Made by a program: the position numbers and the translations under genes. From Deferribacterales bacterium (lineage in GTDB: Bacteria > Chrysiogenota > Deferribacteres > Deferribacterales > Geovibrionaceae): 64,000 nt of DNA. The stretch covers positions 224,001 to 288,000 of the forward strand of contig JBFWLW010000003.1 of assembly GCA_050251945.1 (NCBI GenBank), given 5' to 3'. Shown in pieces: positions 4,391 through 29,094 of this stretch (position 1 is the first letter of the stretch; the number at the start of each line of letters is the position of its first letter). The notes below the pieces were generated by a model, which made no database searches, was not told where the DNA came from, and saw only the letters and a program-made list of their open reading frames with translations.

Positions 4391-4396
4391 TAAAGC

Positions 4397-4432: not shown

Positions 4433-4447
4433 GGTGGAAAAGTAATA

Positions 4448-9554: not shown

Positions 9555-9615
9555 AATTCTTGCCAATTTTTTCCGACAGTAATATTATCCTGTCTTGTCT
9601 GAAAAGGAGAAAACA

Positions 9616-10380: not shown

Positions 10381-10510
10381 AATGTTGATAGCTTTTCGCA
10401 TTTCATACAGGATAGATTTTTCCTGTCTCTTTTGGAAAAAAATTATTGACTAATTATCTTTTTCCATTTATATATGCTTTATCGAATATATAAATTCAAA
10501 GGAGAATAAC

Positions 10511-11215
10511 ATGGAAAACACTGTAGTATCAATACCCAGAATAGGCGAGCAGGCACCTGAATTTAAAGCTGTAACAACACAGGGCGAGATAAATTTTCCC
10601 GCAGACTATAAAGGAAGCTGGGTCATCTTTTTCAGCCACCCCGCAGATTTCACACCTGTATGCACATCCGAGTTTATGACATTTGCGAAGATGGAAAACG
10701 ACTTCGCGGCATACAACTGTAAACTGGTGGGTCTCTCTGTTGACGGACTTTACAGCCACATAGCATGGCTGCGCAATATCAAGGAAAAGATAGACTTCAA
10801 AGGCATGAAAGGCATGGAAGTCAAATTCCCCCTCATTGAAGATATCACAATGGAAGTGGCGAAGAAATACGGAATGATTCAGGAGGGCGAAAGCAACACA
10901 AAAGCTGTCAGAGCGGTTTTCGTTATCGACCCCAAAGGCGTGATACGCACTGTGCTTTACTATCCGCTGAGCACCGGACGCAACTTTGACGAACTTCTGA
11001 GAATCGTCGTTGCTCTTCAGACAGCGGACGCTTTCACATGTGCGACACCGGCAGACTGGAGACCCGGCGACGAAGTTATCGTTCCGCCCGCAGGTTCATG
11101 CGGCGTTGCAAAAGACAGGGTTGAAGGCAAAGAAGAAAACGTGAAGTGCTATGACTGGTACTTCTGTACAAAACCTGTCAGCGCACAGGAAATAGATTCC
11201 AAACTTAAAAAGTAA
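10511..11215 (+). CDS. Peroxiredoxin (AhpC/TSA family, Prx6-like)
   Basis: FSHPADFTPVCTSE, GRNFDE, TPADW motifs and C-terminal cysteines. Confidence 0.93.
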   Translation: MENTVVSIPRIGEQAPEFKAVTTQGEINFPADYKGSWVIFFSHPADFTPVCTSEFMTFAKMENDFAAYNCKLVGLSVDGLYSHIAWLRNIKEKIDFKGMKGMEVKFPLIEDITMEVAKKYGMIQEGESNTKAVRAVFVIDPKGVIRTVLYYPLSTGRNFDELLRIVVALQTADAFTCATPADWRPGDEVIVPPAGSCGVAKDRVEGKEENVKCYDWYFCTKPVSAQEIDSKLKK

Positions 11216-11247
11216 CTTAACAGGGGGGCTGAAACGCCCCCCCCCCC

Positions 11248-11387
11248 CACGTTGTTGACAAACTAAATTTGCACATACTCACATTAGACTGCTTCGGGTT
11301 AAAACCCTCGCAGAGACGTTTTTTGTCTTCGCGAGGAGCGCATGCGACGACGCGATCCTCCATTTTCCTGACTTTGTCATCAGCCTG
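11248..11387 (+). mobile_element. MITE copy A, short form (140 bp), between two terminator-like hairpins
   Basis: Ends CACGTTGTTGACAAAC...ACTTTGTCATCAGCCTG, internal REP pair, highly similar to 26178-26318. Confidence 0.85.
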
Positions 11388-11412
11388 AGGGGGCTTTTCA
11401 ACCCCCACAATT

Positions 11413-12843
11413 TTATAAATAACTCTTGGCTATCCCGCCCAGCTTGATTATTGATTTCTCAAATTTCGCATCCCACGGAAATCCGCAGTTTATCCGCATG
11501 AAGTTATTGTATTTCTGCTGGGATGAAAATATCCCGCCCGGCGAAAACGATATCTTTTCTTTCAGAGCTCTGGGGTACATGTCCAGAGTGTCCACCTTTT
11601 CGGGCATCTCCACCCACAGCACGAAACCGCCCTGCGGACGGGTGACACGCGTACCCTCGGGGAAATGACGCATTATCTGATATGTATACGTTTCCACCTG
11701 CGCCTTGAAACTGTTATTCATTTTGCGCAGATGTCTTGGGAATTTTCCTGATGCGAGGAAATGTGCAACCGTGAGCTGCGGAACTGTATTGGTCGCCATG
11801 CTGGAAGCTATCTTCTGGCGGAGTATTTCGTCGAAATATTTGCCCGGCTCTACCCAGCCCACACGGTAACCAGGCGCCAGACTTTTTGAAAAGGATGAAA
11901 CGTGTATCACGTTGCCGTTCCTGTCGTACTTTTTCAGGTTGCCGAGCCGTCTCCCGCCGAAATTGAAATCGCCGTTTATATCGTCCTCAATGATGGGAAT
12001 ATCCTTTTTATTGCAAAGCTCAACCATCTCTTTCCGTGCATCCTCCGGATAGGTGTGTCCCATAGGGTTGCCATAGTTCGGCTGAACCAGAACGGCTTTC
12101 ACATCGAAACGGCTTAGAGCTTCTTTGAAGTCTTTCATAAGAATACCGTTTTGAGGGCTGGTTGGCAGTTCCAGTGCATAGACCTTCGCCGTTTCAAGCA
12201 GATGCATGAATCCGAAATAGCTGGGCGATTCCATAAGCACAAGATCGCCGGGGCGCGTTACTGCCCGCATCGCCATTGTGATCCCTTCGGAAGCGCCGTT
12301 TGTTATTATTATATTGTCGCTGGTGACAGAATTGCCGTTCATGTTCATGTAATAGGCAAGTTGCTGACGGAAAAATTTATGTCCCTGAACGTCGCCGTAT
12401 TCCACACGCGCTTCGCTGTCGGTGGATAACAGTTTTTTCATTATGCTGTTCAGTTCTCTGTGAGGTAACAGTTCAGTTGCAGGCATCGCACAGCCAAGGG
12501 GAACGATATCCGGATTGGTGATGGCATACAGTATTTCCTGTATCAGACTGCTGTTCTTAACCTGCATCGGCTGGTCGCTGGGTTTTGTGACACGAACCGC
12601 CTCGCGGGGAACAATTGTTCCGCCGGACACATAAAACCCTGACTGGGGGCGGGCTTCAAGCATGCCCACACTTTCAAGTTCCATATACGCCTGCATCACC
12701 GTGGAGAGACTGACGCTCTGCTCCTCGCTCATTTTTCTCAGCGAGGGAACCTTGTCACCCGGGCGTAGAACTTCATTTTCCATCATGGTGACTATAACAT
12801 CCATAACCTGTCTGTACCGGAATTCCTGCTTAACTTTTGCCAT
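11413..12843 (-). CDS. MocR/GabR-family regulator (GntR wHTH plus PLP aminotransferase domain)
   Basis: GDKVPSLR...STVMQAY...ARPQSGFYV; IIEDD; SSFSKSLAPGYRVGW. Confidence 0.93.
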   Translation of the reverse strand: MAKVKQEFRYRQVMDVIVTMMENEVLRPGDKVPSLRKMSEEQSVSLSTVMQAYMELESVGMLEARPQSGFYVSGGTIVPREAVRVTKPSDQPMQVKNSSLIQEILYAITNPDIVPLGCAMPATELLPHRELNSIMKKLLSTDSEARVEYGDVQGHKFFRQQLAYYMNMNGNSVTSDNIIITNGASEGITMAMRAVTRPGDLVLMESPSYFGFMHLLETAKVYALELPTSPQNGILMKDFKEALSRFDVKAVLVQPNYGNPMGHTYPEDARKEMVELCNKKDIPIIEDDINGDFNFGGRRLGNLKKYDRNGNVIHVSSFSKSLAPGYRVGWVEPGKYFDEILRQKIASSMATNTVPQLTVAHFLASGKFPRHLRKMNNSFKAQVETYTYQIMRHFPEGTRVTRPQGGFVLWVEMPEKVDTLDMYPRALKEKISFSPGGIFSSQQKYNNFMRINCGFPWDAKFEKSIIKLGGIAKSYL

Positions 12844-12912
12844 ACAGTCCTCAACTGTTATGTAAACATTTCTATTTTTCTGTATCTGTTATGGTAACTG
12901 TTATTGCTGTAT
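12842..12912. promoter_or_regulatory. Probable MocR operator repeats
   Basis: CTGTTATG at 12855 and 12886, CTGTTATT at 12898, CTGTAT at 12880 and 12907, inverted ATACAG at 12842, all in the divergent promoter region. Confidence 0.55.
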
Positions 12913-13056
12913 TTTACAATCAGAAAGTGGGCAGGAGACAAGCCTTTTGAAATTCAGAAGGCTGGCTTCCGAAAAGACCGATGGTAAATAAAGATTTTTT
13001 GTAATATAAGAATCACCATAGAGCGAACACTTAATTCCGAAACATGAGGTGGCATC

Positions 13057-13323
13057 ATGACGACTAAACAGGAGCTAAAACTAAAACGGTTTCAGACCAA
13101 AGGTTTTGAAAACGCAAAGTCACTCAGCATCTATTGCAGCGAAGGTTCATTATGGATAACAGCAGGCAACGCACTGGGCGACCGTGTGCTTTATGCAGGC
13201 AAAGAACTCCACATAATCGCATCAGACAAGGTTGTTGTTGAGGCTCTTGCAGACAGCGTTTCTTTTGTTACAGTCATGGCGGATATGCCACATCCCCATA
13301 CAATGACAGCAAATAACGACTAA
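13057..13323 (+). CDS. Small DUF2917-like protein
   Basis: CSEGSLWIT...GDRVLYAG...VVVEAL pattern, GAGGT SD, divergent from MocR. Confidence 0.75.
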   Translation: MTTKQELKLKRFQTKGFENAKSLSIYCSEGSLWITAGNALGDRVLYAGKELHIIASDKVVVEALADSVSFVTVMADMPHPHTMTANND

Positions 13324-13388
13324 GTTTAATATATGGCACGCATATGTGCCTTCTGAGGAATATATCCTCCTATCTCTTCAAGCGTAGA

Positions 13389-13416
13389 AAAAGGGCGGCT
13401 TCGTGCCGCCTTTTTT
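13389..13416 (+). terminator. Intrinsic terminator
   Basis: GGCGGC-ttcgt-GCCGCC followed by TTTTTT and preceded by an A-tract. Confidence 0.8.
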
Positions 13417-13426
13417 CAATTATATA

Positions 13427-13916
13427 CACTCTCAAACGACTTCCATGTCGTTTGTTCGCAACGCTTCGTGCGGAATGAATCCGCACTGCGCTCACGCTCC
13501 TCTCGACTCGACACCAAAGGCGCCTCGTCTCAATCCGCGAAGCACATCCATGTGCTTTTGACGCCTTTTTTCAATTAAGCACTCTTAAACGACTTCCGTG
13601 TCGTTTGTTCGCAACGCTTCGTGCGGAATGAATCCGCACTGCGCTCACGCTCCTCTCGACTCGACACCAAAGGCGCCTCGTCTCAATCCGCGAAGCACAT
13701 CCATGTGCTTTTTACGCCTTTTTTCAATTAAGCACTCTCAAACGACTTCCGTGTCGTTTGTTCGCAACGCTTCGTGCGGAATGAATCCGCACTGCGCTCA
13801 CGCTCCTCTCGACTCGACACCAAAGGCGCCTCGTCTCAATCCGCGAAGCACATCCATGTGCTTTTGACGCCTTTTTTCAATTAAGCACTCTCAAACGACT
13901 TCCATATGCTTTTGAC
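13427..13916. repeat. Tandem array of three near-identical 153-bp palindromic units plus a collapsed fourth
   Basis: Unit starts at 13427, 13580, 13733 and 13886; only a few substitutions between units. Confidence 0.95.
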
Positions 13917-13937
13917 ATTTCCATGCTAAAATCTGTA

Positions 13938-14762
13938 ATGCATGATGAACTGAAATACCTGATTAAAAATTCAAAGACCTGCCTGTTTCTGACCGGAGCG
14001 GGAATGAGCGCGGACAGCGGTATTCCTACGTTCAGAGACCGCGACGGCTATTGGCGGAACTTTCCCATTTTCAAAGAAAAGGGACTCCTGCCGCAGGAGC
14101 TTGCATCTCCGGCTTCGTTCCGCAGACAGCCGCATCACAGCTGGGCGTTTTACGAATGGCGCAGGCGCAACGCACGTATGAATACCCCTCACAAAGGTTA
14201 CGAGGTCATAAACCGCATGGTTTCGGATATTTTTGAAGACAGTTTCGTCCACACCACAAACACGGACGGATATCATATAATTTCAGGTCTGCCCGCAGAC
14301 CGTGTGACAGAAATACACGGCAGTATGTGGCGGCTTCAATGCATGAGCGGCTCATCGTGCCGCTACGGTGTCCGGCACAATACCGACGTCCCGCTTCTGG
14401 AGATGGACGAAAACACAATGTCCGCACTTACGATGCCGAAATGTCCGGTTTGCGGAAACCTTCTGCGTCCCAATATATTAATGTTCAACGACCGGGAATA
14501 CATAGACAACGATGTTCAGCTAAACCATTTTGAAAATTTTCTGGAAAAGCACGACCGGATCGACCTCATTTTACTGGTAGGCTCCAGCAGTCAGATACCA
14601 ACCAACGACTATATTGCGAAACGTCTGAAACAATACGGAAGCAGAGTTGTCACCATAAATCCTGATCCATCATCGGCAAGGGTATGCAGTCCCGACATAT
14701 TTATAAAAGAACGTTCGCTCCCGGCTTTTGAAGCCATTGAAAAAATCCTTAACTCCTTCTGA
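13938..14762 (+). CDS. Sir2/CobB-family NAD-dependent deacylase (alternative start 13923)
   Basis: TGAGMSADSGIPTFR, TTNTDG, EIHGS, C...C...CPVC zinc site, RPNILMF, VGSS, INP motifs. Confidence 0.9.
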   Translation: MHDELKYLIKNSKTCLFLTGAGMSADSGIPTFRDRDGYWRNFPIFKEKGLLPQELASPASFRRQPHHSWAFYEWRRRNARMNTPHKGYEVINRMVSDIFEDSFVHTTNTDGYHIISGLPADRVTEIHGSMWRLQCMSGSSCRYGVRHNTDVPLLEMDENTMSALTMPKCPVCGNLLRPNILMFNDREYIDNDVQLNHFENFLEKHDRIDLILLVGSSSQIPTNDYIAKRLKQYGSRVVTINPDPSSARVCSPDIFIKERSLPAFEAIEKILNSF

Positions 14763-14782
14763 CAAAACATACTAAAAAAGGC

Positions 14783-14811
14783 TTGACACAGGCAGGCTCA
14801 ACTCATATTGT
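14783..14811 (+). promoter_or_regulatory. Sigma70 promoter of the hrcA operon
   Basis: TTGACA-17 bp-TATTGT directly before CIRCE. Confidence 0.8.
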
Positions 14812-14816
14812 AGGCA

Positions 14817-14843
14817 TTAGCACTCATGACATGTGAGTGCTAA
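14817..14843. promoter_or_regulatory. CIRCE element (HrcA operator)
   Basis: Perfect TTAGCACTC-N9-GAGTGCTAA. Confidence 0.98.
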
Positions 14844-14859
14844 CAAAACGGTGTGAGCG

Positions 14860-15897
14860 ATGAATTTCCTTAACGACAGAGAAGAAGCCGTTCTTAAAAC
14901 TATCATTGAAGAGTTTGTGCAGAGCAACGAACCCGTCGGCTCAAGGCACATTTCAAAAACAGGTCCGCTGAAACTCGGTCCCGCCTCCATCCGCAACATA
15001 ATGAGCGATCTGGAGGAAAAGGGATATATACTTCAGCCCCATACTTCTGCGGGCAGAGTACCCTCCGACGAGGGATACAGGTATTACATCGACAGACTGG
15101 TGACCTTCGGACTTTCCGACAAGGCTATTCTTGAACAGTTGAAAAGCGACTGCAGTGCAGAAAACATAAACGGCATGTTCAAAAAAGTAAGCGACAACCT
15201 GGGTCGTCTGACACGTTCAGTAGGTTTTGTTATATCACCGAAACTCAACACCATGCTTCTGAAACATATTGAATTCATAAGGCTGAACAGCTCAACCGTT
15301 CTGGCGGTCATCGTCGCCAAAACAGGCATAGTGCATAACGTTATGATCGATATTCCGCCTTCTGTGACAGACAGCGAACTGACACAGATAAGCAATTATC
15401 TGAACACCCACTTTACAGACAAAAGCCTTATGGAGGTCAAAACCTCAATTCTGGACGAAATGCGCCGCGACAAAAACCATATGGACGCACTGCTGCAGAA
15501 TGTTATGAACGTAACTGAAAGAGTTTTTCATAATACAGATTTCGGACAGGACATAATCGTAAGCGGAACCACAGGGATACTCGACCTGCCGGAATTCAGC
15601 GACGTATCACGTCTCAAAGGGCTTTTTCAGACGTTTGAGGAGAAGAAATTCATCTTTGACATTCTGGACAAATGCCAGAACGCAACTGGGGTAAACATCT
15701 TCATAGGCTCCGAAATAGGGCGCTCCGAAGTCAGCGAGCTTGGGCTTGTTACAAAAACCTATTCCAGAGGCGGAAACGTTATAGGGATGCTCGGCATCAT
15801 TGGTCCCAAAAGAATGCGCTACTCCGACGTCGTATCCGTTGTGGACTGCTCCGCCGAACTTGTTTCGGGCATCATGGGCAAGTTTTTAGAGAAGTAA
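14860..15897 (+). CDS. hrcA: Heat-inducible transcription repressor HrcA
   Basis: EPVGS, ASIRNIMSDLE, QPHTSAGRVP, GYRYY, IIGPKRMRY motifs; CIRCE upstream. Confidence 0.97.
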   Translation: MNFLNDREEAVLKTIIEEFVQSNEPVGSRHISKTGPLKLGPASIRNIMSDLEEKGYILQPHTSAGRVPSDEGYRYYIDRLVTFGLSDKAILEQLKSDCSAENINGMFKKVSDNLGRLTRSVGFVISPKLNTMLLKHIEFIRLNSSTVLAVIVAKTGIVHNVMIDIPPSVTDSELTQISNYLNTHFTDKSLMEVKTSILDEMRRDKNHMDALLQNVMNVTERVFHNTDFGQDIIVSGTTGILDLPEFSDVSRLKGLFQTFEEKKFIFDILDKCQNATGVNIFIGSEIGRSEVSELGLVTKTYSRGGNVIGMLGIIGPKRMRYSDVVSVVDCSAELVSGIMGKFLEK

Positions 15898-15941
15898 ACA
15901 GGATGGCTGGCTTAAAACCCATGCCAGCGTCATATAAGACG

Positions 15942-16019
15942 GGATCGCCGCGTCGCTTCACTCCTCGCGAAGACGTACTTCTGTCTCTGCGAAGAAGCAA
16001 CAGGCTGACGAAGCAGTCT
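15942..16019. repeat. CGTC-type REP pair between hrcA and grpE
   Basis: GGATCGC...CTCGCGAAGACG followed by GTCTCTGCGA...GAAGCAGTCT, the same modules as the MITE core. Confidence 0.7.
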
Positions 16020-16056
16020 CATTTGTTTAAAAGGAAATAAGTAAAAGAGGACATAC

Positions 16057-16581
16057 ATGGAAGAAATGGAAAACAAAGAGCAGCAGGAAGAGACGCCGAA
16101 AGACGAACTTACTCTTCTGCGCGAACAGAACGAACGCCTCGCCGAGGCGCTCGCCGCCGCAAAAGACAGCGAACTGCGCTCTCTGGCGGAGATGGACAAC
16201 GTGCGCAAAAGGCTCACAAAGGAGTTTGACGACAAGCTGAAATACTCCAACCTGAACCTGATATCCGCACTGTTCCCCGTTATGGATAATTTTGAAATGG
16301 CGCTTAGCCACATCTCCGGCGAGAATCCGGTGGAAGGTCTTAAAGAGGGCGTTCATCTCACACTGAAGCAGATGAGTGAAACCCTTGAGAAATACGGACT
16401 GAAAGAGATAGAGCTTAACATCGGCGATGAATTCAACCCCCAGTTCCACGAGGCGCTGATGGTTGACTGTGACGAAAACTATGAAGACAACAAGATCCTC
16501 ATGGTGCTGCAAAAAGGATACACCCTCCACGGCAGAGTGGTTCGCCCCTCGAAAGTGAAGGTCAACAAAAGGAATAATTGA
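16057..16581 (+). CDS. grpE: Nucleotide exchange factor GrpE
   Basis: AEMDNVRKR, FNPQFHEA, QKGYTLHGRVVRP motifs; operon context. Confidence 0.96.
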   Translation: MEEMENKEQQEETPKDELTLLREQNERLAEALAAAKDSELRSLAEMDNVRKRLTKEFDDKLKYSNLNLISALFPVMDNFEMALSHISGENPVEGLKEGVHLTLKQMSETLEKYGLKEIELNIGDEFNPQFHEALMVDCDENYEDNKILMVLQKGYTLHGRVVRPSKVKVNKRNN

Positions 16582-16608
16582 AAAGATATACAATCTCAGG
16601 AGGAAACA

Positions 16609-18534
16609 ATGGCAACATCCAAAAAGGTCATCGGTATTGACCTCGGAACCACAAACTCATGCGTAAGCATTATGGAGGGCGGTCAGCCCAAAGTTATCGC
16701 TAACTCTGAAGGCGCGCTTACAACGCCTTCGGTTGTGGCTTTTACAGATTCTGACAGACTGGTCGGTATGCTGGCGAAAAGACAGGCGATAACCAACCCG
16801 GAAAACACAATATTCTCTATTAAACGTCTGATAGGACGTAAATCTGATGCCCCAGAAGTGGCAAAAGCAAAAAAAGTGCTTCCCTATCAGATAGTCGGTT
16901 CAGACAACAACGATGCATGGGTTGAAGTTAAAGGTAAAAAATACGCTCCTCAGGAAGTTTCAGCTATGATACTTCAGAAGCTGAAATCCACTGCGGAAGA
17001 TTATCTTGGCGAAACCGTCACAGATGCTGTAATCACAGTTCCCGCTTACTTCAACGACGCTCAGCGTCAGGCAACAAAAGATGCGGGCAAGATCGCAGGT
17101 CTTAACGTGCTTCGTATCATCAACGAACCCACAGCCGCAGCGCTTGCATACGGTCTGGACAAAAAGCACGACGAGAAAATCGCAGTGTACGACCTTGGCG
17201 GCGGTACGTTCGATATCTCCATCCTTGAACTGGGTGACGGCGTATTTGAAGTTAAGTCAACCAACGGCGATACTTTCCTCGGCGGTGACGACTTTGACAT
17301 GCGCGTAGTTGAGTGGCTTGTGGATGAGTTCAAAAAATCCAACGCTCTCGACCTTCGCAACGACAAAATGGCTCTTCAGCGTCTGAAAGAGGCCGCTGAA
17401 AAAGCTAAACACGAACTTTCAACAGCAGGCGAAACAGAGATAAACCTTCCGTTCATCACTGCTGATGCAACCGGTCCCAAACACCTTGTTGTTAAACTCT
17501 CCAGAGCAAAATTCGAGTCTCTGGTTATGGATCTGGTCGTAAACTCACTGGAGCCTTGCAAAAAAGCTCTTCAGGATGCAGGTCTTTCCGCAAGCCAGAT
17601 AGACGAAGTCATCCTTGTCGGCGGTATGACCCGTATGCCGCTGGTTCAGCAGAAAGTTAAAGAATTCTTCGGCAAAGAACCCCATAAAGGCATCAACCCC
17701 GATGAAGTTGTTGCAGTGGGTGCGGCAATTCAGGGTGCGGTTCTTTCAGGCGACGTAAAAGACGTTCTCCTGCTGGACGTTACTCCTCTGTCACTGGGTA
17801 TCGAAACTCTGGGCGGCGTTATGACAAAAATCATCCCCAGAAACACAACAATACCCGCACGCCAGAGCCAGACTTTCACGACCGCAGCAGACAGCCAGAC
17901 CTCTGTTACCATCAGCGTAATTCAGGGCGAACGTGAAATGGCAAACGACAACAAACATATCGGACGCTTCGACCTCGTTGGTATCCCTGCGGCTCCCCGC
18001 GGCGTTCCGCAGATCGAAGTTACATTCGATATAGATGCGAACGGTATCCTGCACGTTTCCGCCAAAGATCAGGGAACAGGCAAAGAACAATCCATCCGCA
18101 TCACTCCTTCAAGCGGTCTGTCCGATGACGAAATAAACAAAATGGTCAAGGATGCCGAACTCAACGCCGACGCGGACAAAAAGAAAAAAGAACTCGTTGA
18201 GGCAAGAAATCAGGCGGATACGCTTGTTTACTCAACTGAAAAATCACTGTCCGAACACGGCGACAAAGTCGATGGACAGACAAAAGAAGCCATCGAAAAA
18301 GCTCTTGCCGACCTGAAAGCAAAATCAGCAGGTGAAGACCCCGCAGCCATCAACGCGGCTATCGAAGAGCTTACAAAAGCTGCTCATAAACTTGCCGAAG
18401 AAATATACAAAGCGGCACAGGCACAGCAGCAGGAAGCACAGTCACCCGACGGCACAGAGCAGACACAGCAGGGTAAACCCGCTGACGACGTTGTTGACGC
18501 CGAGTTTGAAGAAGTTAAAGACGAAAAGAAATAA
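16609..18534 (+). CDS. dnaK: Chaperone DnaK
   Basis: [35 protein letters not shown] and DAEFEEV motifs. Confidence 0.99.
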
Positions 18535-18546
18535 TAATTTTCTATC

Positions 18547-18580
18547 AAAGGGGGCTGACGGACATCGGCTCCCTTTTTTT
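18547..18580 (+). terminator. Intrinsic terminator after dnaK
   Basis: AAAGGGGGCTGA...TCGGCTCCC followed by T7. Confidence 0.7.
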
Positions 18581-18604
18581 GTTTTATTCTCTCTTTAAAG
18601 AGGT

Positions 18605-18709
18605 CAGGCAGTTGACAAACAGGTCAATTTATAATTAGACTGCCGCGTCAGCCTGCGGCTTCCTCGCAGAGACATTCATTCGTCTTTGAGAACGAAGTGA
18701 AGCAAACTG
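18605..18709 (+). mobile_element. Degenerate partial MITE copy E upstream of dnaJ
   Basis: CAGGCAGTTGACAAAC left end, then ATTAGACTGC...CCTCGCAGAGAC and a decayed second palindrome; right TIR not seen. Confidence 0.55.
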
Positions 18710-18727
18710 ATTTTACGGAGCTTAACA

Positions 18728-19849
18728 TTGGCTAAAGATTACTATGAAACTCTGGGCGTTAATAAAAACGCCACAGAAACCGAACTGAAAAAAGCATACA
18801 GAAAACTCGCCATGCAGTATCACCCAGACAGAAATCAGGGCAACAAAGAGGCGGAAGAGAAATTCAGGGAAATTAACGAGGCATATTCCATTCTGTCAGA
18901 CGGCACAAAACGTGCGCAGTATGACCAGTACGGAAGGGTCTTTGACGATAAAAACGGCGGATTCGGCGGAGGCGGAGGATTCGGAAACGGAGATACCATC
19001 TTTGAAGAATTCTTCGGAGACGTTTTCGGCGATTTCTTCGGCACAGCCGGAAGCACCAGACGCAAACGCAGACCCCAGAAGGGCACAAATATACAGATGG
19101 GGCTTGAAATCTCCTTTGAAGAAGCGGCGTTCGGCTGCGAAAAGGAACTCAACGTACCCAAAACCGAAAACTGTTCGCGATGTGACGGAACGGGAGCCGA
19201 ACCGGGCGCTATGGAAACATGCCCCACATGTCACGGTTCCGGCACTATCCAGCGCAGGCAGGGTCTTTTCGCCATCAGCACCCCTTGCGGTACATGCGGC
19301 GGAACTGGACAGATAATCAAAGAACTCTGCAAAGAGTGCCGCGGTGAAGGCACAAAACGCGTCACAACCAAGCTGAGCGTCAAAGTTCCCGCAGGCATAG
19401 AGGACGGCATGACGATGCGTCTCTCAGGAAAGGGCAATTCAGGCAGCAACGGCGGTCCCGCAGGCGACCTTTTCATAGAGGTTTCGGTGTCCCCTCACAA
19501 GCTTTTCAAAAGAGACGGACGGGAAATATACATGGAACTCCCGATATCATTCGTTGACGCGATACTCGGCAAATCCATAGATATTCCGACACTGAACGGT
19601 GCAGAAAAAATAACCATCAAAGCCGGCTCACAGCCAGGTGACAAGATAGTTCTGAAAGGCAAGGGACTTCCCGACGTTCAGGGCATCGGCATCGGAAATA
19701 TGAACATTGAACTCAAAGTTCTGCTCCCCACACAGCTTACTAAGGAGCAGAAGGATCTTCTGGAACAGTTCGATCTTACGGTTACGGAAGAAACATATCA
19801 CTCCCAGAAAACCCTTTGGGACAGAATGAAAGAATTTTTTAAAGCGTAG
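18728..19849 (+). CDS. dnaJ: Chaperone DnaJ (TTG start)
   Basis: J domain with HPD, G/F-rich region, four CxxCxGxG repeats. Confidence 0.98.
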
Positions 19850-19877
19850 AAAACAGCGGGCGGCTTTTATGCCGCGT

Positions 19878-20115
19878 CAGACTTATGATAAAGTCAGGAA
19901 AATGCAGGATCGCGTCGTCGCGTGCGCTTCTCGCGAAGACAAAACAACGTCTCTGCGAGGGTTTCAACCCGAAGCAGTCTAATTTCCATATTTCTCCCTC
20001 CTTTAGCAAAAGGAGGGTTGGGGTGGATTTGATTGATGTTTAATCAAAATCCCCCTTATTCCCCCTTTTCTAAAGGGGGAGATAGGAACGTAAAATCCAG
20101 TTTGTCAACAACCTG
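19878..20115 (-). mobile_element. MITE copy B, long form (~238 bp), with 18-bp target duplication
   Basis: GGGCGGCTTTTATGCCGC at 19858-19875 and 20117-20134; near-identical reverse complement of 24374-24610. Confidence 0.9.
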
Positions 20116-20125
20116 AGGGCGGCTT

Positions 20126-20623
20126 TTATGCCGCCTTTTTTAATGCCTTCATGGCAGGGCATTTATTATCCACAAAGCTGACCAGAAGCGCCGCACAGAT
20201 ACCCAGCGAAACTTCCACGAACCTGTCGAACCCGATACGCCATGCAACCTCGCTGTGGTGCATCAGCAGGATGATTGCAAAAGTCACGCCGCCGAGCCTG
20301 TATGCGCTCACTGTCAGTTTCATCGCGTAGCAGATCATCCCCATTATGAATATCCCAAGACCGAAATTCAGAGTGTTCACTTCCGGAAAGACGTAGTTGA
20401 AGGCGCCGGCGAAAAGCGCGCCCGTTACCGTTCCGATAAGTCTTTGTTTGGAAGTGTCCCATGACTGACCAAGTGTAGACTGCATCACGATTATAGCTGA
20501 TATTGGCGCCCAGTAATATTCTGCAAGACCCAGCAGTTTTGCCGACGAAAGCGACAGCATCGCAGCAGCCGCAGTCCAGAAGGAGTGTCTCACCCACATG
20601 TTATTCAATAAATTCCTAAGCAT
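20126..20623 (-). CDS. FUSC/aromatic acid exporter-family membrane protein
   Basis: YWAPISAIIVMQ...QRLIGTVTGA...DRFVEVSLGI pattern. Confidence 0.8.
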   Translation of the reverse strand: MLRNLLNNMWVRHSFWTAAAAMLSLSSAKLLGLAEYYWAPISAIIVMQSTLGQSWDTSKQRLIGTVTGALFAGAFNYVFPEVNTLNFGLGIFIMGMICYAMKLTVSAYRLGGVTFAIILLMHHSEVAWRIGFDRFVEVSLGICAALLVSFVDNKCPAMKALKKAA

Positions 20624-20761
20624 TGTCTGTCACCTTTTATGTAATAATAATCATAACCTATACAAAAAATTATTCAATGACCGATGCTTTTTAAGTTTTA
20701 TCTGGATTAATTCATGCAAATTACCTATATATGAAGCTGTATGTAAAAGGAGAGCGGTATT

Positions 20762-22147
20762 ATGTCTGAAAAGATGTGGTCAGGGCGCTTTACACTGCCC
20801 ACCGACAAGTTTGTGGAAGAATTCAACGCATCAATCCACTTTGACAAAAGATTTTATAAATACGATATCAAAGGAAGCCTTGCCCACGCGCGTATGCTGG
20901 GCAGACAGGCCATCATCTCCGAAGCCGACGTTAAGGACATCGAAAGGGGACTGGCGCAGGTTCTGGACGAAATAGAAACAGGCAGGTTTCAATTCCGCAC
21001 GGAAGATGAAGATATCCACATGGCTGTGGAAAAACGTCTCACCGAGATAATCGGTGACGCGGGCAAACGGCTGCACACGGGAAGAAGCAGAAACGATCAG
21101 GTGGCTGTTGACTTCCGAATGTATCTGAAAGCGGAGATTGAAGAGACCATGGCGCTGGTGAAGCACCTGCTTGGCACCATTATAGCCAAGGCAGAGAAAA
21201 ACATTGATGTTTACATGCCCGGATTCACCCACCTTCAGACGGCACAGCCAATACTTTTCTCACAGTACATAATGGCTTATTTCCAAATGCTTAAAAGAGA
21301 CTACGGCAGGTTTGCAGACTGTCTGGAACGTATGGACTACAGCCCTTTGGGTTCCGGCGCTCTGGCAGGGACAACTTTTCCCATAGACAGACATTTCACA
21401 GCGAACGAACTGGGCTTTAAGGCGCCCACAGAAAACACTCTGGATTCAGTCAGTGACAGGGATTTCGCAATCGAATTTCTCTCCGCCTGCGCGATATGCC
21501 AGATGCACCTTTCCAGATTCTCCGAGGAACTGATAATTTATTCCACATCTGAATTCGCTTTTATAGAGCTTTCTGACGACTTCTGCACCGGTTCCAGCAT
21601 CATGCCGCAGAAGAAGAATCCAGACATGCCGGAGCTTATCCGCGGTAAAACAGGAAGAGTTTACGGAAGTCTGATAAGCATGCTTACAACCATGAAAGGT
21701 CTGCCCCTTGCATATAACAAGGACATGCAGGAGGACAAGGAGCCTGTTTTCGACGCTGTGGACACCATAAAAGCATCGCTTAAGATATTCGCACCCATGG
21801 TGGAAAAGATGAAACTGCGCACTCCGAAAATGGAACAGGCGGCAACAGCCGGATATTCCACCGCCACAGACTATGCAGACTACCTTGTGCGCAAAGGCGT
21901 GCCGTTCAGGCAGTCTCACCACATCGTCGGCTCAACTGTGGCATACGCCATACAGAAGGGCGTGGACATAAGCGAACTGACACTTGACGAGTTCAAAAAG
22001 TTTTCGGATGTGATAGAATCAGATATCTATGACGCTATCACCCTGCAGGCGTCAGTTAACGCAAGAAAAGCATATGGCGGCACTGCAAAAACCGCTGTTG
22101 AAACACAGATAAATAACGGGAAAAACTTTTTAAATGAAATACGCTAG
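20762..22147 (+). CDS. argH: Argininosuccinate lyase
   Basis: [31 protein letters not shown] and [10 protein letters not shown] motifs. Confidence 0.98.
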
Positions 22148-23009
22148 TCTTATTTTAGCTCTTTTTCTGATACTCGCCGGATGCGGAAAGAAAACCAATC
22201 CGGTTCCGAAATCCGCTCTTGCAGACATGACGCCGCCTACGGCTGTATTTGTTTCCGTTGATGATGCGGGTATCCGTATCGACAATCAGGAATCCGATCA
22301 GCTCTTTATCGAAAAAGGCGTTTCAGCGGACGACGAATGTTCTGTTTTCAACTTTTTAAAAGTGATAGATCCGAAATCAGTCTTCATAGACGAAGACGTT
22401 CAGTCCGGATTTAAATACTTTTACAGGCTGCGCAAAAGGTCTGTAAAATACGGCGTACTCTCAGAACCTTACATGGCGAAAGTAGTCTATGCGAAACCTA
22501 TGAAGGTTCAGAGCGCAAAATATACGAAAGAGGGCGGGATTTACCGCGTCTCCATTGAGACCGATGACAAATTCACCCGTTTCGACGTTTATTCCGGCGG
22601 AAAGACCATCGCGCAGACCGGCGGGAAAACGATAACTTTTCCGGAATCTTCTGTCGTTGATAATAAATTCTATCTGATACTGTCCGACTACGACGGTAAC
22701 AGAGGAACACCGTACACAATTGAGATACCTGTGCAGAAGGTGCTTAATCCGCCTCTGCCCGTTACAACTATTTCCGTGCTGAACATCGGAGCCGACACTC
22801 GCATCGTCTGGAGCGATTCCGAAGGCGCGGAAACATATAATGTTAAAGCGTGTGAAAATGTTTCATGTGAAACGTTTTCCACACAAAACACATCCGTGGC
22901 ATACCAAAAGACGATCAAAAGCTGTCTGGACATAACAGTTACCGCCGTGAATGCAGACGGCGAGTCCGCACCGACAAAGATACGCTACTGCAAACCGGAA
23001 GAGGAATAA
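22134..23009 (+). CDS. Lipoprotein with fibronectin-III-like beta domains
   Basis: Lipobox [19 protein letters not shown]3-like end; overlaps argH and der. Confidence 0.75.
22859..22874. promoter_or_regulatory. parS-like site (2 mismatches) inside the lipoprotein gene
   Basis: TGTTTCATGTGAAACG versus consensus TGTTTCACGTGAAACA. Confidence 0.55.
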
Positions 23010-24349
23010 TGTTTACCATAGGAATCATAGGACGCCCGAACGTGGGCAAATCCACACTGTTTAACAGACTGGCGGGAAAAAAAATTGCAATCGTTGACGA
23101 TATGCCCGGCGTTACCCGCGACAGAATAGAATTCGTTGCAGAATGGGACGGATACAGGTTCACCATAGTGGACACAGCCGGATTTGACCTTAAAGAAGAA
23201 TTGCTTAAAAAAGAAATGCAGGCTCAGTTCATGATCAACCTGAGCGAAGCCGACTACTTTATCCTTATGACAGACGGCGTTGAAGGAGTACATCCCCTTG
23301 ACGAAATAGTCATCGACCTGCTCCGCCAGACAGGCAAACCATATCAGGTTGTTGTCAACAAAGTAGACAGCGATGCAAAAGAAATTCTCACATACGACTT
23401 TTTCCGTCTCGGCGTGGACGAGATAATCGGTATCAGCGCCACTCACGGGCGGAATGTTGATGTGCTGCTTGATAAAATAGTTGAGCAGATACCTGAAGAC
23501 CATGACAAAACAGACCCCTACGAAGGCAGAATAAAGCTTATCGTGACAGGAAGACCTAACGTCGGCAAATCCAGCATGATCAACAAGTGGCTGGGACAGA
23601 ACAGACTTATCGTCACCCCCGTCCCCGGCACAACAAGGGACGCTGTTGACACCTTCTTTGAATATAATGATCAGAAATACGTCCTCATCGACACGGCGGG
23701 GATCCGTAAAAAGAAGATAATGTTCAAGGACAAGATAGAGAAATACGGCTATCACCGCTGGGAAGATGCCGTTGAGCGCGCGGATATCGCCGTGTGTATC
23801 ATAGACGCAAACGAAGGACTGACTGACAGAGACGTTAAGGTAATAGCGGACAACTGGGAAGCGGGTAGACCCGTTATCCTTGTTGCGAACAAATGGGATC
23901 TTATAGAAAGCAAGGACGAACGTGCCAAGGAATTCCTTAAGGATATTGACCATCACCTTCAGTTTCTGAATAAACCTTCGCTGATTTACACTTCAACTCT
24001 GACAAGTAAGAACATCTTTAAGGTGTTCGACGCTGCGAAAGAGCTTTATAAGGAATACAGCAAACGTATCTCCACCCACAAGCTTCAGGAGGTATTGCAG
24101 GAAGCCGTACAGCGCCACCAGCCGCCTGTGACACGCAACAGAAGGGTGAAGTTCTACTTCATCACTCAGGTTTCCACCTGTCCTCCGGAATTCGTGGTAT
24201 TCGTTAACTATCCTGACGCGGTGCATTTCTCTTACCAGCGATTCATAGTGAATATCATCCGCGCACACCACAGCTTTGACGGTGTACCTATCAAGATACA
24301 CTTCCGCCAGCGCGGCGAATCCAAAAACACTCCAATACCTGAATATTAG
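23009..24349 (+). CDS. der: Ribosome biogenesis GTPase Der (EngA)
   Basis: Two GRPNVGKS/DTAG/NKxD G domains and a KH-like C-terminus. Confidence 0.97.
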   Translation: MFTIGIIGRPNVGKSTLFNRLAGKKIAIVDDMPGVTRDRIEFVAEWDGYRFTIVDTAGFDLKEELLKKEMQAQFMINLSEADYFILMTDGVEGVHPLDEIVIDLLRQTGKPYQVVVNKVDSDAKEILTYDFFRLGVDEIIGISATHGRNVDVLLDKIVEQIPEDHDKTDPYEGRIKLIVTGRPNVGKSSMINKWLGQNRLIVTPVPGTTRDAVDTFFEYNDQKYVLIDTAGIRKKKIMFKDKIEKYGYHRWEDAVERADIAVCIIDANEGLTDRDVKVIADNWEAGRPVILVANKWDLIESKDERAKEFLKDIDHHLQFLNKPSLIYTSTLTSKNIFKVFDAAKELYKEYSKRISTHKLQEVLQEAVQRHQPPVTRNRRVKFYFITQVSTCPPEFVVFVNYPDAVHFSYQRFIVNIIRAHHSFDGVPIKIHFRQRGESKNTPIPEY

Positions 24350-24373
24350 TAAAAGGACAGCTTCGGCTGCCAT

Positions 24374-24610
24374 CAGGTTGTTGACAAACTGGATTTTACG
24401 GTCCTATCTCCCCCTTTAGAAAAGGGGGAATAAGGAGGATTTTGATTAAACATCAATCAAATCCACCCCAACCCTCCTTTTGCTAAAGAGGGAGAAATAT
24501 GGAAATTAGACTGCTTCGGGTTAAAACCCTCGCAGAAACTTTTTTTTGTCTTCGCGAGGAACACATGCGACGACGCGATCCAGCATTTTCCTGACTTTGT
24601 CATCAGTCTG
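24374..24610 (+). mobile_element. MITE copy C, long form (~237 bp), with 17-bp target duplication
   Basis: GGACAGCTTCGGCTGCC at 24355-24371 and GGGCAGCTTCGGCTGCC at 24611-24627; ends CAGGTTGTTGACAAAC/ACTTTGTCATCAGTCTG. Confidence 0.9.
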
Positions 24611-24839
24611 GGGCAGCTTCGGCTGCCTTTTATTTTTACTCATTATTTCAATTCTGTCGTCTGAAAATAATATTCAGCCATGAGCAAATGCTGATTTTTC
24701 ACTGAGAAAAGCCACATTTTGCAGATTATTCTGGAAATATTGCGCCAGTTGTAATATAAGTCAAAACCTATACCCTCGTTTTTGCGTCGCAACAAAAAAG
24801 AGGCAGGCGTAAGCCAAATACTTATTTAGAAGGTGTTAT

Positions 24840-26150
24840 ATGCGTTATGACCTGGCCAAAAGCGGAAACGGCCTGACCTATGAGATCCGCAATATTGTCA
24901 ATGTTGCTAAGATCCTTGAGCAGCACGGCGTCGAAATCTGTTACGAGAATATCGGCGACCCGGTTGCAAAAGGCGAGATCATCCCCGACTGGATGAAAGA
25001 TACCATCGCTGATCTTGTCAGAAACAACAACATGACCTTTGCCTACTGCCCCACAAAAGGCGATTACGACGTCCGCGAATTTCTCGCGGAACGCACAAAC
25101 GCCAGAGGCGGAGTGCAGATTACAAAAGACGACATCATTTTTTTCAACGGACTTGGCGACGCAATAGCACGAGCGTATAGCTCAATCAGAGTGGATGCAA
25201 GGGTGATGCTGCCTGAGCCGACCTACTCAACACACCTTCTGGCGGAAGTTCTCCACGCATCATTTCCGCCCAACACGTACAGAATGAACCCTTATAACAA
25301 CTGGGCTCCCGATCTCAACGAGCTTGAGAAAAAAGTGGAAAGCCACAAATCTATAGTGGGTATTCTGGTCATAAACCCCGACAACCCCACAGGGTATGTC
25401 CACACTGAGGACGACCTGCGCAGGATCGTCAATATGGCAAAAGAACACGACCTGATGCTTATCTTTGACGAAATATACCTTAACATGGTCTATAACGGTA
25501 AGAAGACCATAGCCCTTTCCGACATAATCGGAGACGTTCCGGGCATCGCCATGAAGGGAATATCAAAAGAGTTCCCCTGGCCGGGCGCACGCTGCGGCTG
25601 GATGGAAATTTACAATGCAGACAAGGACGAAGCCTTCAAACGCTTCACAAACGCTATACTGAACCAGAAAATGGCTGAGGTCTGCTCAACGACTCTGCCC
25701 CAGATGTCCATTCCCCACATAATGACACATCCGATGTACACAACGTATCTGAACGAAAGGCTCAAACACTATGAAAAGCTGTCCAACATCGCATACAACA
25801 TGCTGAAAGACTGCCCATATGTGGTCGTTAACCGCTCAAACGGCGCTTTCTACATGTCTGTTGTGTTTAATGAAGCTGTTCTGAACAAAAACCAGAAGCT
25901 GAACATCGAAATTAAAGAGGTGCGCGACATCGTTGATAAGATGTGCGAGGACAAAATGAGCCACGACAAGCGCTTCGTATATTATCTGCTTGGTGCAACA
26001 GGCATTTGTGTGGTTCCGCTTACTTCGTTCTTTACATCTATCCCCGGATTCCGTATGACTCTGCTTGAAAAGAACGTTGAAAAATTTGAGCAAACCGTAA
26101 CCACCATCAAAGAAAAAATAGCGGAATACGTCGAATCAGGAAGCTGTTAA
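24840..26150 (+). CDS. Class I/II PLP-dependent aminotransferase (AlaA-like)
   Basis: ENIGDP, INPDNPTG, FDEIY and GISKEFPWPGARCGW motifs. Confidence 0.9.
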   Translation: MRYDLAKSGNGLTYEIRNIVNVAKILEQHGVEICYENIGDPVAKGEIIPDWMKDTIADLVRNNNMTFAYCPTKGDYDVREFLAERTNARGGVQITKDDIIFFNGLGDAIARAYSSIRVDARVMLPEPTYSTHLLAEVLHASFPPNTYRMNPYNNWAPDLNELEKKVESHKSIVGILVINPDNPTGYVHTEDDLRRIVNMAKEHDLMLIFDEIYLNMVYNGKKTIALSDIIGDVPGIAMKGISKEFPWPGARCGWMEIYNADKDEAFKRFTNAILNQKMAEVCSTTLPQMSIPHIMTHPMYTTYLNERLKHYEKLSNIAYNMLKDCPYVVVNRSNGAFYMSVVFNEAVLNKNQKLNIEIKEVRDIVDKMCEDKMSHDKRFVYYLLGATGICVVPLTSFFTSIPGFRMTLLEKNVEKFEQTVTTIKEKIAEYVESGSC

Positions 26151-26177
26151 ACAATTAAGGGAGCCTTTCGGCTCCCT

Positions 26178-26318
26178 CAGGTTGTTGACAAACTAAATTT
26201 ACACAGACTCGCATTAGACTGCTTCGGGTTAAAAACCCTCGCAGAGACGTTTTTTTGTCTTCGCGAGGAACGCATGCGACGACGCGATCTCGCATTTTAC
26301 TGGCTTTTCATCAGTTTA
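26178..26318 (+). mobile_element. MITE copy D, short form (~141 bp); its right-hand target duplicate is split by IS3
   Basis: AGGGAGCCTTTCGGCTCCCT at 26158-26177; second copy is 26319-26330 plus 27749-27756. Confidence 0.88.
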
Positions 26319-26425
26319 AGGGAGCCTTTCTGAACTGTCCCCCAAAAATTGGACACAAATAAAAAGAGCCCTTTAGCGCAAGCTAAGGGGCTTTTTTCGT
26401 GTAAACTAATTTAAAGGAGCAGCCA

Positions 26426-26812
26426 ATGAGACAAAGAGAATTTACACCAGACGAACGTCAGTCTTTGGAAAGTAACCCGAATGTACTCAAGGTAGGCAAC
26501 AGCAACATCACCTACACAGCAGATTTCCGTCAACATGCCTTAAATTGTTATTATGACGGAGAACCACCCAGAAAAATCTTCAAACAGGCAGGGATAGATA
26601 TATCCATCTTCCCCGAAGGTTACCCTGAATCCACCATAAGCCGATGGCACAACGCCGAGAAGAAACCACATAAAAGCTCTCGTAAATCAGGTAGTGGACG
26701 CCCCAAGAAGACCAGTAACATGACTACAGAGGAGATGGAGGCAAGAATAGCCTATCTTGAAGCGGAGAACGATTTCCTAAAAAAGCTACGTGCCTTGGAG
26801 AGAGGCGAATAA
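26426..26812 (+). CDS. IS3 OrfA
   Basis: HTH-like region, SGRPKK, RIAYLEAENDFLKKL zipper; A6G slippery site at 26779-26785. Confidence 0.92.
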   Translation: MRQREFTPDERQSLESNPNVLKVGNSNITYTADFRQHALNCYYDGEPPRKIFKQAGIDISIFPEGYPESTISRWHNAEKKPHKSSRKSGSGRPKKTSNMTTEEMEARIAYLEAENDFLKKLRALERGE

Positions 26813-26886
26813 GACCACAATCTAAATATGGACTGATATCCGAGGCATTAAATAAGAGTAATAACCTGTCAGTATCGCTTCTTTGT

Positions 26887-27699
26887 ATGTGTGCCGCAGT
26901 CAGTCGCAGCGGATATTACTACTGGCAGAAGCACGAAGGGGAAGCTGCTCTTCGTGATTTGGAAGCATTGAGATTAGTTCGGTCTGTCCATAAGAGATTT
27001 CATGGCAAAGCAGGTATCCGGACAATCCGTATGTATCTTGAGTTTAAGTACGGAGTGGTGATGAATCTAAAAAAGATATCCTGCATAAAAAAGACTTACG
27101 GGATAGATACTAAGATACGACGTAAAAACAAGTATAATACCTTTAATCATGCTGTGCATGAGAACGAGACCTCTCCCAATCTTGTGGACAGAATATTTAA
27201 TGTTGTAGAACCGGACAGAGTGTACTCAACAGATATAACATACCTTCCCTATTATGGCGGTAAGCAGGCATATTTATCAGCAACTAAAGATTTATGCAGC
27301 AGGGAGATAGTGCATTACAATGTCAGCCGTAATATCAGAACAGACCTTGCGTGTGAAGGTCTTTGCGATGTATTTAAGAAATTACCTGATGCTGTCAGAA
27401 GTAACCTGATTATCCATTCGGATCAGGGAGGTCATTACAGGAGCAAAGAGTTCAGGAGTCTTTTAAATGAGTACGGCATAAAGCAGTCGATGTCCAGAAG
27501 AGGTAATTGTCTGGATAACGCACCGATCGAAAGTTTCTTCGGTCACATGAAAGACGAGATAGAGCTTGGAAAATGCATCAGCTTCGATGATGTAAAAGAG
27601 ATGGTAAGTAAATATATCCGTTTCTATAATGAAGAGAGATACCAATGGACATTAAAAAAGATGACGCCGATTGAATACCGACGTCATCTTGATACTTGA
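26887..27699 (+). CDS. IS3 OrfB DDE transposase, expressed as OrfAB by -1 frameshift
   Basis: TDITY, HSDQGGHY, SRRGNCLDNAPIESFF motifs; the -1 frame is open from the A6G site. Confidence 0.95.
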   Translation: MCAAVSRSGYYYWQKHEGEAALRDLEALRLVRSVHKRFHGKAGIRTIRMYLEFKYGVVMNLKKISCIKKTYGIDTKIRRKNKYNTFNHAVHENETSPNLVDRIFNVVEPDRVYSTDITYLPYYGGKQAYLSATKDLCSREIVHYNVSRNIRTDLACEGLCDVFKKLPDAVRSNLIIHSDQGGHYRSKEFRSLLNEYGIKQSMSRRGNCLDNAPIESFFGHMKDEIELGKCISFDDVKEMVSKYIRFYNEERYQWTLKKMTPIEYRRHLDT

Positions 27700-27760
27700 A
27701 AACTTAAAGGGCTTTTTTACTGTCCGAAAAACAGGGGACAGTTCATTCGGCTCCCTTTTT

Positions 27761-29026: not shown

Positions 29027-29094
29027 TGCCGGACCTCTGGAGGCTCTTTAAAAACAAAGTATACCACTAATTACACAGTTGGCAAATTTATTTG

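What the first reader, a model, noticed from the sequence alone, without database searches (positions are those of the whole stretch)
11222..27756. MITE family that inserts into intrinsic terminators and duplicates the whole hairpin
Seen: four complete copies (11248-11387, 19878-20115, 24374-24610, 26178-26318) and one relic (18605-18709) share imperfect TIRs CAGGTTGTTGACAAAC...ACTTTGTCATCAG(T/C)CTG. Each complete copy sits just after a stop codon. Copies B, C and D are flanked by 17-20 bp direct repeats that are themselves different terminator hairpins (GGGCGGCTTTTATGCCGC, GG(A/G)CAGCTTCGGCTGCC, AGGGAGCCTTTCGGCTCCCT). Inference: the target is chosen by structure rather than sequence, and insertion regenerates a terminator on both sides, so it is nearly harmless. 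Long variable DRs at palindromic targets are reported for some DDE IS families such as IS1182; that family assignment is my inference. No cognate transposase is in this window.
Basis: partly seen in the sequence, partly recalled or inferred. Interest (0 to 1): 0.8.

Follow-up and report, generated by a model that had tools for sequence, protein, structure and literature searches.

The report
Terminator-duplicating mini-transposon carrying REP repeats
About a hundred copies of a small gene-less mobile element sit at the foot of terminator-like DNA hairpins, mostly with the whole hairpin copied to both sides; its tips match IS1182-type transposons, which likely move it, so this is a well-supported new example of a known habit, with the twist that its interior is made of unrelated palindromic repeats.

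Summary
Real, and larger than reported: 88 paired copies (115 loci). 65 of 88 have 16-33 bp direct repeats (control 3 of 1050), 78 of 88 abut a hairpin, and 47 of 86 lie between convergent genes. Orthologous sites in two congeners are mostly empty and none showed a doubled hairpin (30 of 31 and 26 of 33 empty). The partner is an IS1182-family IS: not found in this genome, but present with the same 15-16 bp tips in congeners, once in the same dnaJ terminator. Full-length relatives duplicate 13-52 bp palindromes (40 of 50), so the target sets the duplication length, likely through a cruciform. Two corrections: (1) only the far hairpin copy keeps its U-tract (72 of 88 against 3 of 88), so termination is likely shifted past the element, not regenerated on both sides; (2) the interior is not IS-derived but consists of REP-like doublets that also occur free. 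IS1182 hairpin targeting is in print, and this scan has noted such MITEs before (36 findings, 33 or more genomes). Verdict: a variant of a known kind; the REP cargo is the fresh part.

The parts
11248..11387 (+). MITE copy A (140 bp, IS1182-type tips, one REP-alpha doublet), between convergent peroxiredoxin and GntR-aminotransferase genes
   Evidence: the same element (97% identical) is at this site in G002, absent in G004 and G005
11223..11247 (+). left hairpin copy of site A (C-run expanded)
11388..11407 (+). right hairpin copy of site A, loop flipped relative to the left copy
18605..18709 (+). relic: one left tip plus a REP-alpha doublet, no right tip, no DR, between dnaK and dnaJ
19858..19877 (+). 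target duplication at the dnaJ terminator, copy nearest dnaJ (no U-tract after it)
19878..20115 (-). MITE copy B (238 bp, REP-beta plus REP-alpha modules)
   Evidence: G002 has a full IS1182 here in the opposite orientation, G004 and G005 are empty
20116..20135 (+). target duplication, far copy with the T-tract; holds the stop codon (20126-20128) of the convergent FUSC-domain gene
24355..24373 (+). target duplication after der/engA, near copy
24374..24610 (+). MITE copy C (237 bp, beta plus alpha)
   Evidence: G002 has a different MITE subtype here in the opposite orientation
24611..24629 (+). target duplication, far copy followed by the T-tract
26158..26177 (+). target duplication after the aminotransferase gene, near copy
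26178..26318 (+). MITE copy D (141 bp, degenerate right tip)
   Evidence: a single hairpin in G004 and G005, a different MITE subtype in G002
26319..26330 (+). first part of D's far hairpin copy
26331..27745 (+). IS3-family element (TG...CA ends, orfA/orfB) inserted in the loop of D's far hairpin copy, 3-bp TSD; not the cognate transposase
27746..27756 (+). rest of D's far hairpin copy, followed by the T-tract
15941..16021 (.). free REP-alpha doublet without tips (hrcA-grpE); the same repeat as the MITE cargo
   Evidence: present in G005, absent in G002, G004 and G006

Best explanation
This is a gene-less passenger element whose 15-16 bp tips match an IS1182-family IS found in sister species, and that IS's DDE transposase likely moves it in trans by joining the two ends at the opposite feet of a palindrome, likely extruded as a cruciform, so that gap repair would copy the whole hairpin to both sides. 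Shown: the tips, the duplications, the empty sites, the partner IS at the same kind of site, and a duplication length that follows palindrome length. Inferred: trans-mobilisation, the cruciform, gap repair. Terminators are hit because they are the commonest short GC-rich palindromes. In each direction of transcription only the far copy keeps its U-tract, so transcripts are predicted to run through the element and end about 140-260 nt later, giving an antisense overlap between convergent genes; coding sequence stays intact. The interior is filler of independent REP-like doublets that appears to be swapped between copies by recombination at the shared tip core. No partner IS was found in this genome, so its copies are probably dormant now.
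For: Tips: MITE ends match the G002 IS for 16 nt on the left (one position differs) and 15 nt on the right, and identity then falls to background. The G004 IS copy L037 carries the exact MITE left tip. Family: NF033551 above its cut-off for three related full-length or near-full-length transposases (467-506 bits, cut-off 270); the G002 N-terminal fragment is 67% identical to one of them and has DUF772. Behaviour: four left/right contig-end pairs of the congener IS carry the same 20-bp hairpin on both sides; 40 of 50 complete relatives from 10 genomes have 13-52 bp DRs, all 40 with self-complementary edges, and the length varies within one IS (21-33 bp; 18-52 bp). Empty sites: G004 30 of 31 without an element and 0 of 31 with a doubled hairpin; G002 26 of 33 empty. 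No orientation bias (20 against 17, p=0.74), as expected for a symmetric target. Palindromes that are not terminators are also used (14-bp palindromes in L056-L067; a REP remnant at G000 C5:76234).
Against: No IS1182 transposase or IS interior in this assembly, so the link rests on congeners. The congener IS is seen only as contig-end fragments; its own fragment scores below the NF033551 cut-off (144 bits). 23 of 88 copies lack a good DR, and 10 of 50 complete ISs lack one. The cut is not always at the outermost foot: 21 of 42 well-defined sites have 1-4 further pairs beyond the DR. Edges favour GG (61% against 44% in unoccupied terminators; p=0.012 with both ends pooled, which are not independent; p=0.10 for one end). 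No transposition assay, no cruciform evidence and no transcript ends (one search gave contigs only).
Confidence: 0.86

Rival explanations
1. Same IS1182 MITE, but the transposase reads two short sequence half-sites (A-G-G-like) or single-stranded hairpins at replication forks or terminating RNA polymerase, rather than a cruciform in duplex DNA.
For: Outward edges read A,G,G at 63-67, 57-62 and 58-59 of 88 copies; weak GG excess over unoccupied terminators; strong tie to gene ends (median 26 nt from a stop codon).
Against: Spacing between the edges varies from 13 to 52 bp, AT-rich hairpins are used in Clostridium, palindromes without T-tracts are used, and there is no orientation bias to transcription. 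Orientation to replication was not tested (draft assembly).
Confidence: 0.09
2. The element is a REP doublet (REPIN-like) moved by a REP-associated HUH transposase, and the tips and DRs are incidental.
For: The interior is a head-to-head REP-like doublet that also occurs free at 154 loci and in genomes without the tips.
Against: No Y1 transposase (PF01797) found in this genome. The duplication junctions fall at the IS1182-type tips, as for the full IS. Elements with the same tips carry different cargo (alpha only, beta only, both).
Confidence: 0.02
3. The double hairpins pre-existed, or arose later by recombination, and the element was merely retained between them as a host-selected 3' UTR regulatory module.
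For: Flank pairs can differ in the loop (28 of 277 loop positions against 42 of 880 stem positions), and some are inverted copies (3 of 88, plus site A).
Against: 0 of 31 G004 sites has a doubled hairpin, and where both flanks align closely the length difference equals element plus one DR within 6 bp at 12 sites (read). Loop flips also occur between empty alleles (G004 against G005 at site D). Occupancy is species-specific.
Confidence: 0.03

Closest known systems
IS1182-family insertion sequences that target palindromes (NCBIfam NF033551; Siguier et al. 2015 as cited in PMC5678879 and PMC4923244, passages read; the review itself was not read)
   Same: Same tips as the congener IS, hairpin targets without primary-sequence consensus, both orientations, repeated use of one target. 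[quoted passage not shown]
   Different: Non-autonomous, 107-267 bp, no IS-derived interior. From recall, Siguier 2015 also lists members that duplicate the entire stem-loop; I could not check this.
IS1272 and TnSha1 of staphylococci (IS1182 family; PMC5678879, PMC4923244, passages read)
   Same: Insert at terminator hairpins (five confirmed by RNA-seq in PMC4923244); target taken as structure; independent insertions into one hairpin in both orientations.
   Different: They delete part or all of the hairpin and leave no duplication; this element duplicates it.
YPAL elements of Yersinia (De Gregorio et al. 2006; seen only as a table row and reference in PMC3184786 and PMC2267715; content recalled) and IS1630 of Mycoplasma fermentans (IS30 family; lead from scan notes, paper not held)
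   Same: Recalled: YPAL is a MITE inserted just after stop codons, often at terminators, and co-transcribed; IS1630 makes long variable duplications at terminator-like hairpins.
   Different: Different ends or family; neither statement was checked against the paper.
CGTC-tagged REPs (PMC3733652, passages read)
   Same: The alpha cargo units start with CGTC or TGTC (226 and 200 of 463), form head-to-head doublets, and no Y1 transposase was found here, as the paper reports for this class.
   Different: Here 194 of 455 non-shuffled alpha cores lie inside or beside IS1182 tips. The paper found no regular link to a transposase and did not list this phylum in the passages read.

Membership tests
MITE (non-autonomous IS derivative) | short, multi-copy, bounded by TIRs, no transposase | tested here: met
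   88 paired copies of 107-267 bp; too short for a transposase; no ORF of 100 aa or more spans the window copies
MITE (non-autonomous IS derivative) | target-site duplication with single-copy empty sites in relatives | tested here: met
MITE (non-autonomous IS derivative) | interior derived from the parent IS by internal deletion | tested here: not met
   No blastn similarity between the IS end regions held (about 200 nt left, about 310 nt right) and MITE interiors, best E=3. The middle of the congener IS was not available. Not required of all MITEs.
MITE (non-autonomous IS derivative) | mobilised in trans by the cognate transposase | not testable with these tools
   inferred from shared tips and shared target behaviour
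IS1182 family (partner IS) | transposase matches NF033551 above cut-off, with DUF772 and DDE_Tnp_1_6 | tested here: met
   L013, L044, L099 at 487, 467 and 506 bits, cut-off 270; Pfam for L044 and L099. The congener's 129-aa fragment hits NF033551 best but below cut-off (144 bits) and has DUF772.
IS1182 family (partner IS) | MITE tips match the ends of that IS | tested here: met
   15 of 16 left positions and 15 right positions; exact left tip in G004 L037
IS1182 family (partner IS) | an autonomous copy in the same genome | tested here: not met
   none found in G000, 99.97% complete, 26 contigs; a draft assembly cannot prove absence
CGTC-type REP (cargo alpha) | CGTC/TGTC tag at one end; head-to-head doublets | tested here: met
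   the search pattern fixed GTC, so only the first tag base was free
CGTC-type REP (cargo alpha) | stem of 8-9 bp, loop of 4-5 nt and CCA tail matching one of families 1-4 | tested here: inconclusive
   the paper's consensus figure is not held; units here end in TCTC/TCTA-like tails and often have longer stems
REPIN / RAYT system | REP-flanked Y1 transposase in the genome | tested here: not met
   PF01797: 0 matches in G000; relatives were not searched

The most novel reading that the evidence does not exclude
IS1182 tips act as an interchangeable shuttle for otherwise orphan CGTC-type REP doublets: the REP supplies a self-folding filler of about 100 bp that lets two bare tips pair, and the tips carry the REP into more than a quarter of the convergent terminators, moving transcript ends genome-wide and creating antisense overlaps of 140-260 nt. 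This would be a concrete route of spread for a REP class with no known transposase, assembled more than once (different fillers in G000, G006 and probably another genus, G014).
Probability: 0.3. Interest if true: 0.62.

Novelty: new variant of a known kind. Interest (0 to 1): 0.38.

Why it matters
It gives a clean, well-controlled data set for a habit that the papers I could read describe thinly: a DDE transposase whose duplication length is set by the target palindrome (13-52 bp). The congener IS and its 140-bp passenger make this directly testable. It also predicts a genome-wide shift of transcript 3' ends, since 52 of 179 convergent junctions are occupied, and it bears on how CGTC-type REPs spread. 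The targeting principle itself is not new.

Tried and rejected
No cognate transposase in G000: PF05598, PF13751, protein search, blastn of the IS end regions. The IS3 element in the window is not the partner: different ends and a 3-bp TSD. No Y1 transposase. No Rfam match in window 9500-29500. Expression and transcript ends could not be tested: only assembled contigs were served, and the 'RNA' label of X3 is a guess; X4 contigs skip site D, in what looks like related organisms, which adds little. Counting G004 hairpins by sequence similarity was insensitive, so it was redone by structure: 19 single, 9 none under a strict perfect-stem rule, 3 with two unrelated hairpins. Of the 26 empty G002 sites, 3 gave segments too short to judge and 2 have a different local sequence. 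The idea that MITEs shuffle hairpins between loci got no clear support: 28 of 176 flanks have a 17-18 of 20 match elsewhere, in line with a few common stem types; only C2:30491/C2:37861 is suggestive. The idea that free REPs are decayed MITEs was rejected for most: tip scores equal control, with 7 of 269 at 10 bits or more against 1 of 1500. Of 20 tip-like hits fetched from other genomes, most of those outside the genus are chance matches in genes; only two in G014 look like elements. Papers not held: Siguier review, De Gregorio 2006, Calcutt 1999. Searches for a published IS1182 MITE with REP cargo returned nothing on point in their listings; most subscription journals and ISfinder are not covered. 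Supplements of PMC3733652 were listed but not read; those of bioRxiv 10.1101/2025.07.22.666184 (terminators by IS family) are closed and may bear on IS1182. Genes were called with my own crude hexamer model, so context counts are approximate.
Full report
OBSERVATION. A lies between convergent peroxiredoxin and GntR-aminotransferase genes, B after dnaJ, C after der/engA, D after an aminotransferase gene. D's right-hand duplication is split by a 1415-bp IS3-family element with a 3-bp TSD. A has a hairpin on both sides too, with the loop flipped on the right. The window is G000:C3:224001-288000. The genus is most likely Seleniivibrio: the congener's transposase fragment matched a record of that genus at 100%.

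GENOME-WIDE. Position-weight scans for both tips gave 88 paired elements of 107-267 bp, mostly 139-142 bp, and 115 loci with at least one strong tip. 65 of 88 have a direct repeat scoring 10 or more (16-33 bp, mode 20; 25 are perfect over 15 bp or more), against 3 of 1050 cross-paired flanks. 78 of 88 abut a stem of 6 bp or more, against 219 of 3000 random intergenic positions. Of 86 with genes on both sides, 47 are between convergent genes, 37 co-directional and 2 divergent (background 176 of 1362 convergent; odds ratio 8). The median distance from stop codon to tip is 26 nt, and 77 of 86 are within 60 nt. 52 of 179 convergent junctions hold a strong tip. 34 of 65 modelled empty sites pass a strict terminator test that 85 unoccupied gene ends also pass. 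Gene calls are from my own crude model.

EMPTY SITES. In the window, sites B and D have a single hairpin in G004 and G005, and site A in G005 and G004; at C, G004, G005 and G006 have neither element nor that hairpin. With 1.19 Mb of G004, 31 of the 88 sites could be compared: 30 lack tips and none has a doubled hairpin. With 1.21 Mb of G002, 33 sites: 26 empty, 1 with the same element, 2 with the full IS, 4 with another or partial MITE. B, C and D are each occupied in G002 by a different element in the opposite orientation, which most simply means independent reuse of the same hairpins. For D, an inversion followed by conversion cannot be excluded, as both share an unusual right tip.

PARTNER. 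None was found in G000. In G002 a DUF772 gene starts 60 nt inside a near-identical left tip that follows a terminator hairpin. G002 and G004 carry many such ends at contig edges; four left/right pairs have the same 20-bp hairpin on both sides. Related transposases pass the IS1182 model NF033551; aspartate and glutamate residues at the places I recall as the DDE triad are conserved in the three long sequences. Of 80 related loci, 50 from 10 genomes had both ends and flanks; 40 have DRs of 13-52 bp, all with self-complementary edges, and the length varies among copies of one IS; 10 have no DR. These 50 are not independent: 41 come from three genomes.

MECHANISM. Shown: the duplication is the palindrome, centred on it, of variable length; there is no orientation bias (20 against 17); non-terminator palindromes are used. 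[quoted passage not shown] The cut often falls inside the flanking A:T pairs (21 of 42 sites have 1-4 more pairs beyond it), and a weak GG preference remains possible.

CONSEQUENCE. For 88 transcription units at 65 sites, the near hairpin copy has 5 or more T in the next 8 nt in 3 cases and the far copy in 72. Transcripts are therefore predicted to include the element, which folds strongly as RNA (z = -4.9 and -7.9 for two copies with flanks), and convergent genes would overlap in antisense. At B the stop codon of the convergent gene lies in the hairpin loop and is kept by the duplication. No transcript-end data were available.

CARGO. Similarity to the IS stops at the tips. Interiors fall into 16 clusters built from a few modules: alpha (a CGTC/TGTC-tagged REP-like doublet), beta (a doublet of C-run/G-run hairpins) and nested gamma inserts, alone or combined. 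Alpha cores: 146 inside paired elements, 48 near a single tip, 261 free at 154 loci, 8 in a shuffled genome. Most free units show no trace of tips. The alpha pattern occurs in 15 of 31 genomes searched, including congeners with no tip match, so it is more widespread than the MITE. G006 has elements with the same tips, the same lengths (142, 154 bp) and whole-hairpin DRs but different filler; G014, of another genus, has two tip-bounded elements with beta or beta plus alpha cargo. At C5:33672 G000 has alpha plus beta where G002 has alpha only, with the junction in the tip core, which points to recombination between copies. How the first REP got between two tips is unexplained.

KNOWN CONTEXT. 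IS1272 and TnSha1 (IS1182 family) target terminator hairpins by structure but delete them; both papers cite Siguier 2015 for palindrome-targeting IS1182 members (passages read). A preprint reports terminator-like sequences enriched next to ISs in general (passages read). PMC3733652 states that CGTC REPs lack a dedicated transposase and may be moved by several (passages read). PMC10969869, PMC3184786, PMC3049150 and PMC2267715 were read as passages and describe no hairpin-duplicating MITE in those passages; passages of four further papers added nothing. YPAL and IS1630 precedents are recalled or come from scan notes and were not checked. The scan's index holds 36 findings with these words in at least 33 genomes; I had reached the IS1182 reading before that look-up and do not count them as support.

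VERDICT. A real and abundant IS1182-type MITE family that duplicates whole hairpins (confidence 0.86). Known principle, new family; the REP cargo and the shifted termination are the additions. Interest 0.38.

Noticed in passing
window 26331-27745; G000 C3:337721, C4:323224, C6:29903, 31313, 159913, C7:126, C14:126, C16:125, C18:127, C20:21732, C21:126, C22:13648; G004 L140, L191: IS3-family ends in this genome follow the GC arm of a terminator-like hairpin, usually after an A-tract (often AAAAGCCCCG or AAACCCGC), so they appear to insert in terminator loops. Twice the hairpin is a MITE duplication. Their own subterminal sequence also holds AAAAAGCCCC. Two DDE families seem to share one target: IS1182 at the foot, IS3 in the loop.
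   Followed up: partly
window 26158-26177 against L125 and L126; G000 C3:14542, C3:49724, C5:47878; window site A: Terminator loops flip orientation: between empty alleles of congeners and between the two copies of one duplication. Loops also differ about twice as often as stems.
   Followed up: partly
window 3920-4435: Cluster of free REP-alpha units plus a beta hairpin between ruvB and acetate kinase, without tips.
   Followed up: no
window 13404-13912: Tandem array of about 153-bp units, 97-98% identical, unrelated to the MITE.
   Followed up: no
G000 C6:50982-51281: Two MITEs in tandem separated by one hairpin copy (three copies in all): a second insertion into a duplicated hairpin, or a local duplication.
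   Followed up: no
L041, L038, L037 (congener IS ends): The autonomous IS has a palindrome just inside each tip, which the MITE lacks; it may insulate the transposase gene from read-through.
   Followed up: no
G000 C5:41061-41710 and C10:67132-67764: Arrays of about 650 bp made of repeated REP-alpha units.
   Followed up: no
G024 (same order): 46 DUF772 transposase matches in one complete 2.5-Mb genome, of at least two types; their targets were not examined.
   Followed up: no
L072:2364-3975: This Clostridium carboxidivorans IS copy has no ORF of 300 aa or more although it has a perfect long DR; a frameshift, perhaps programmed.
   Followed up: no
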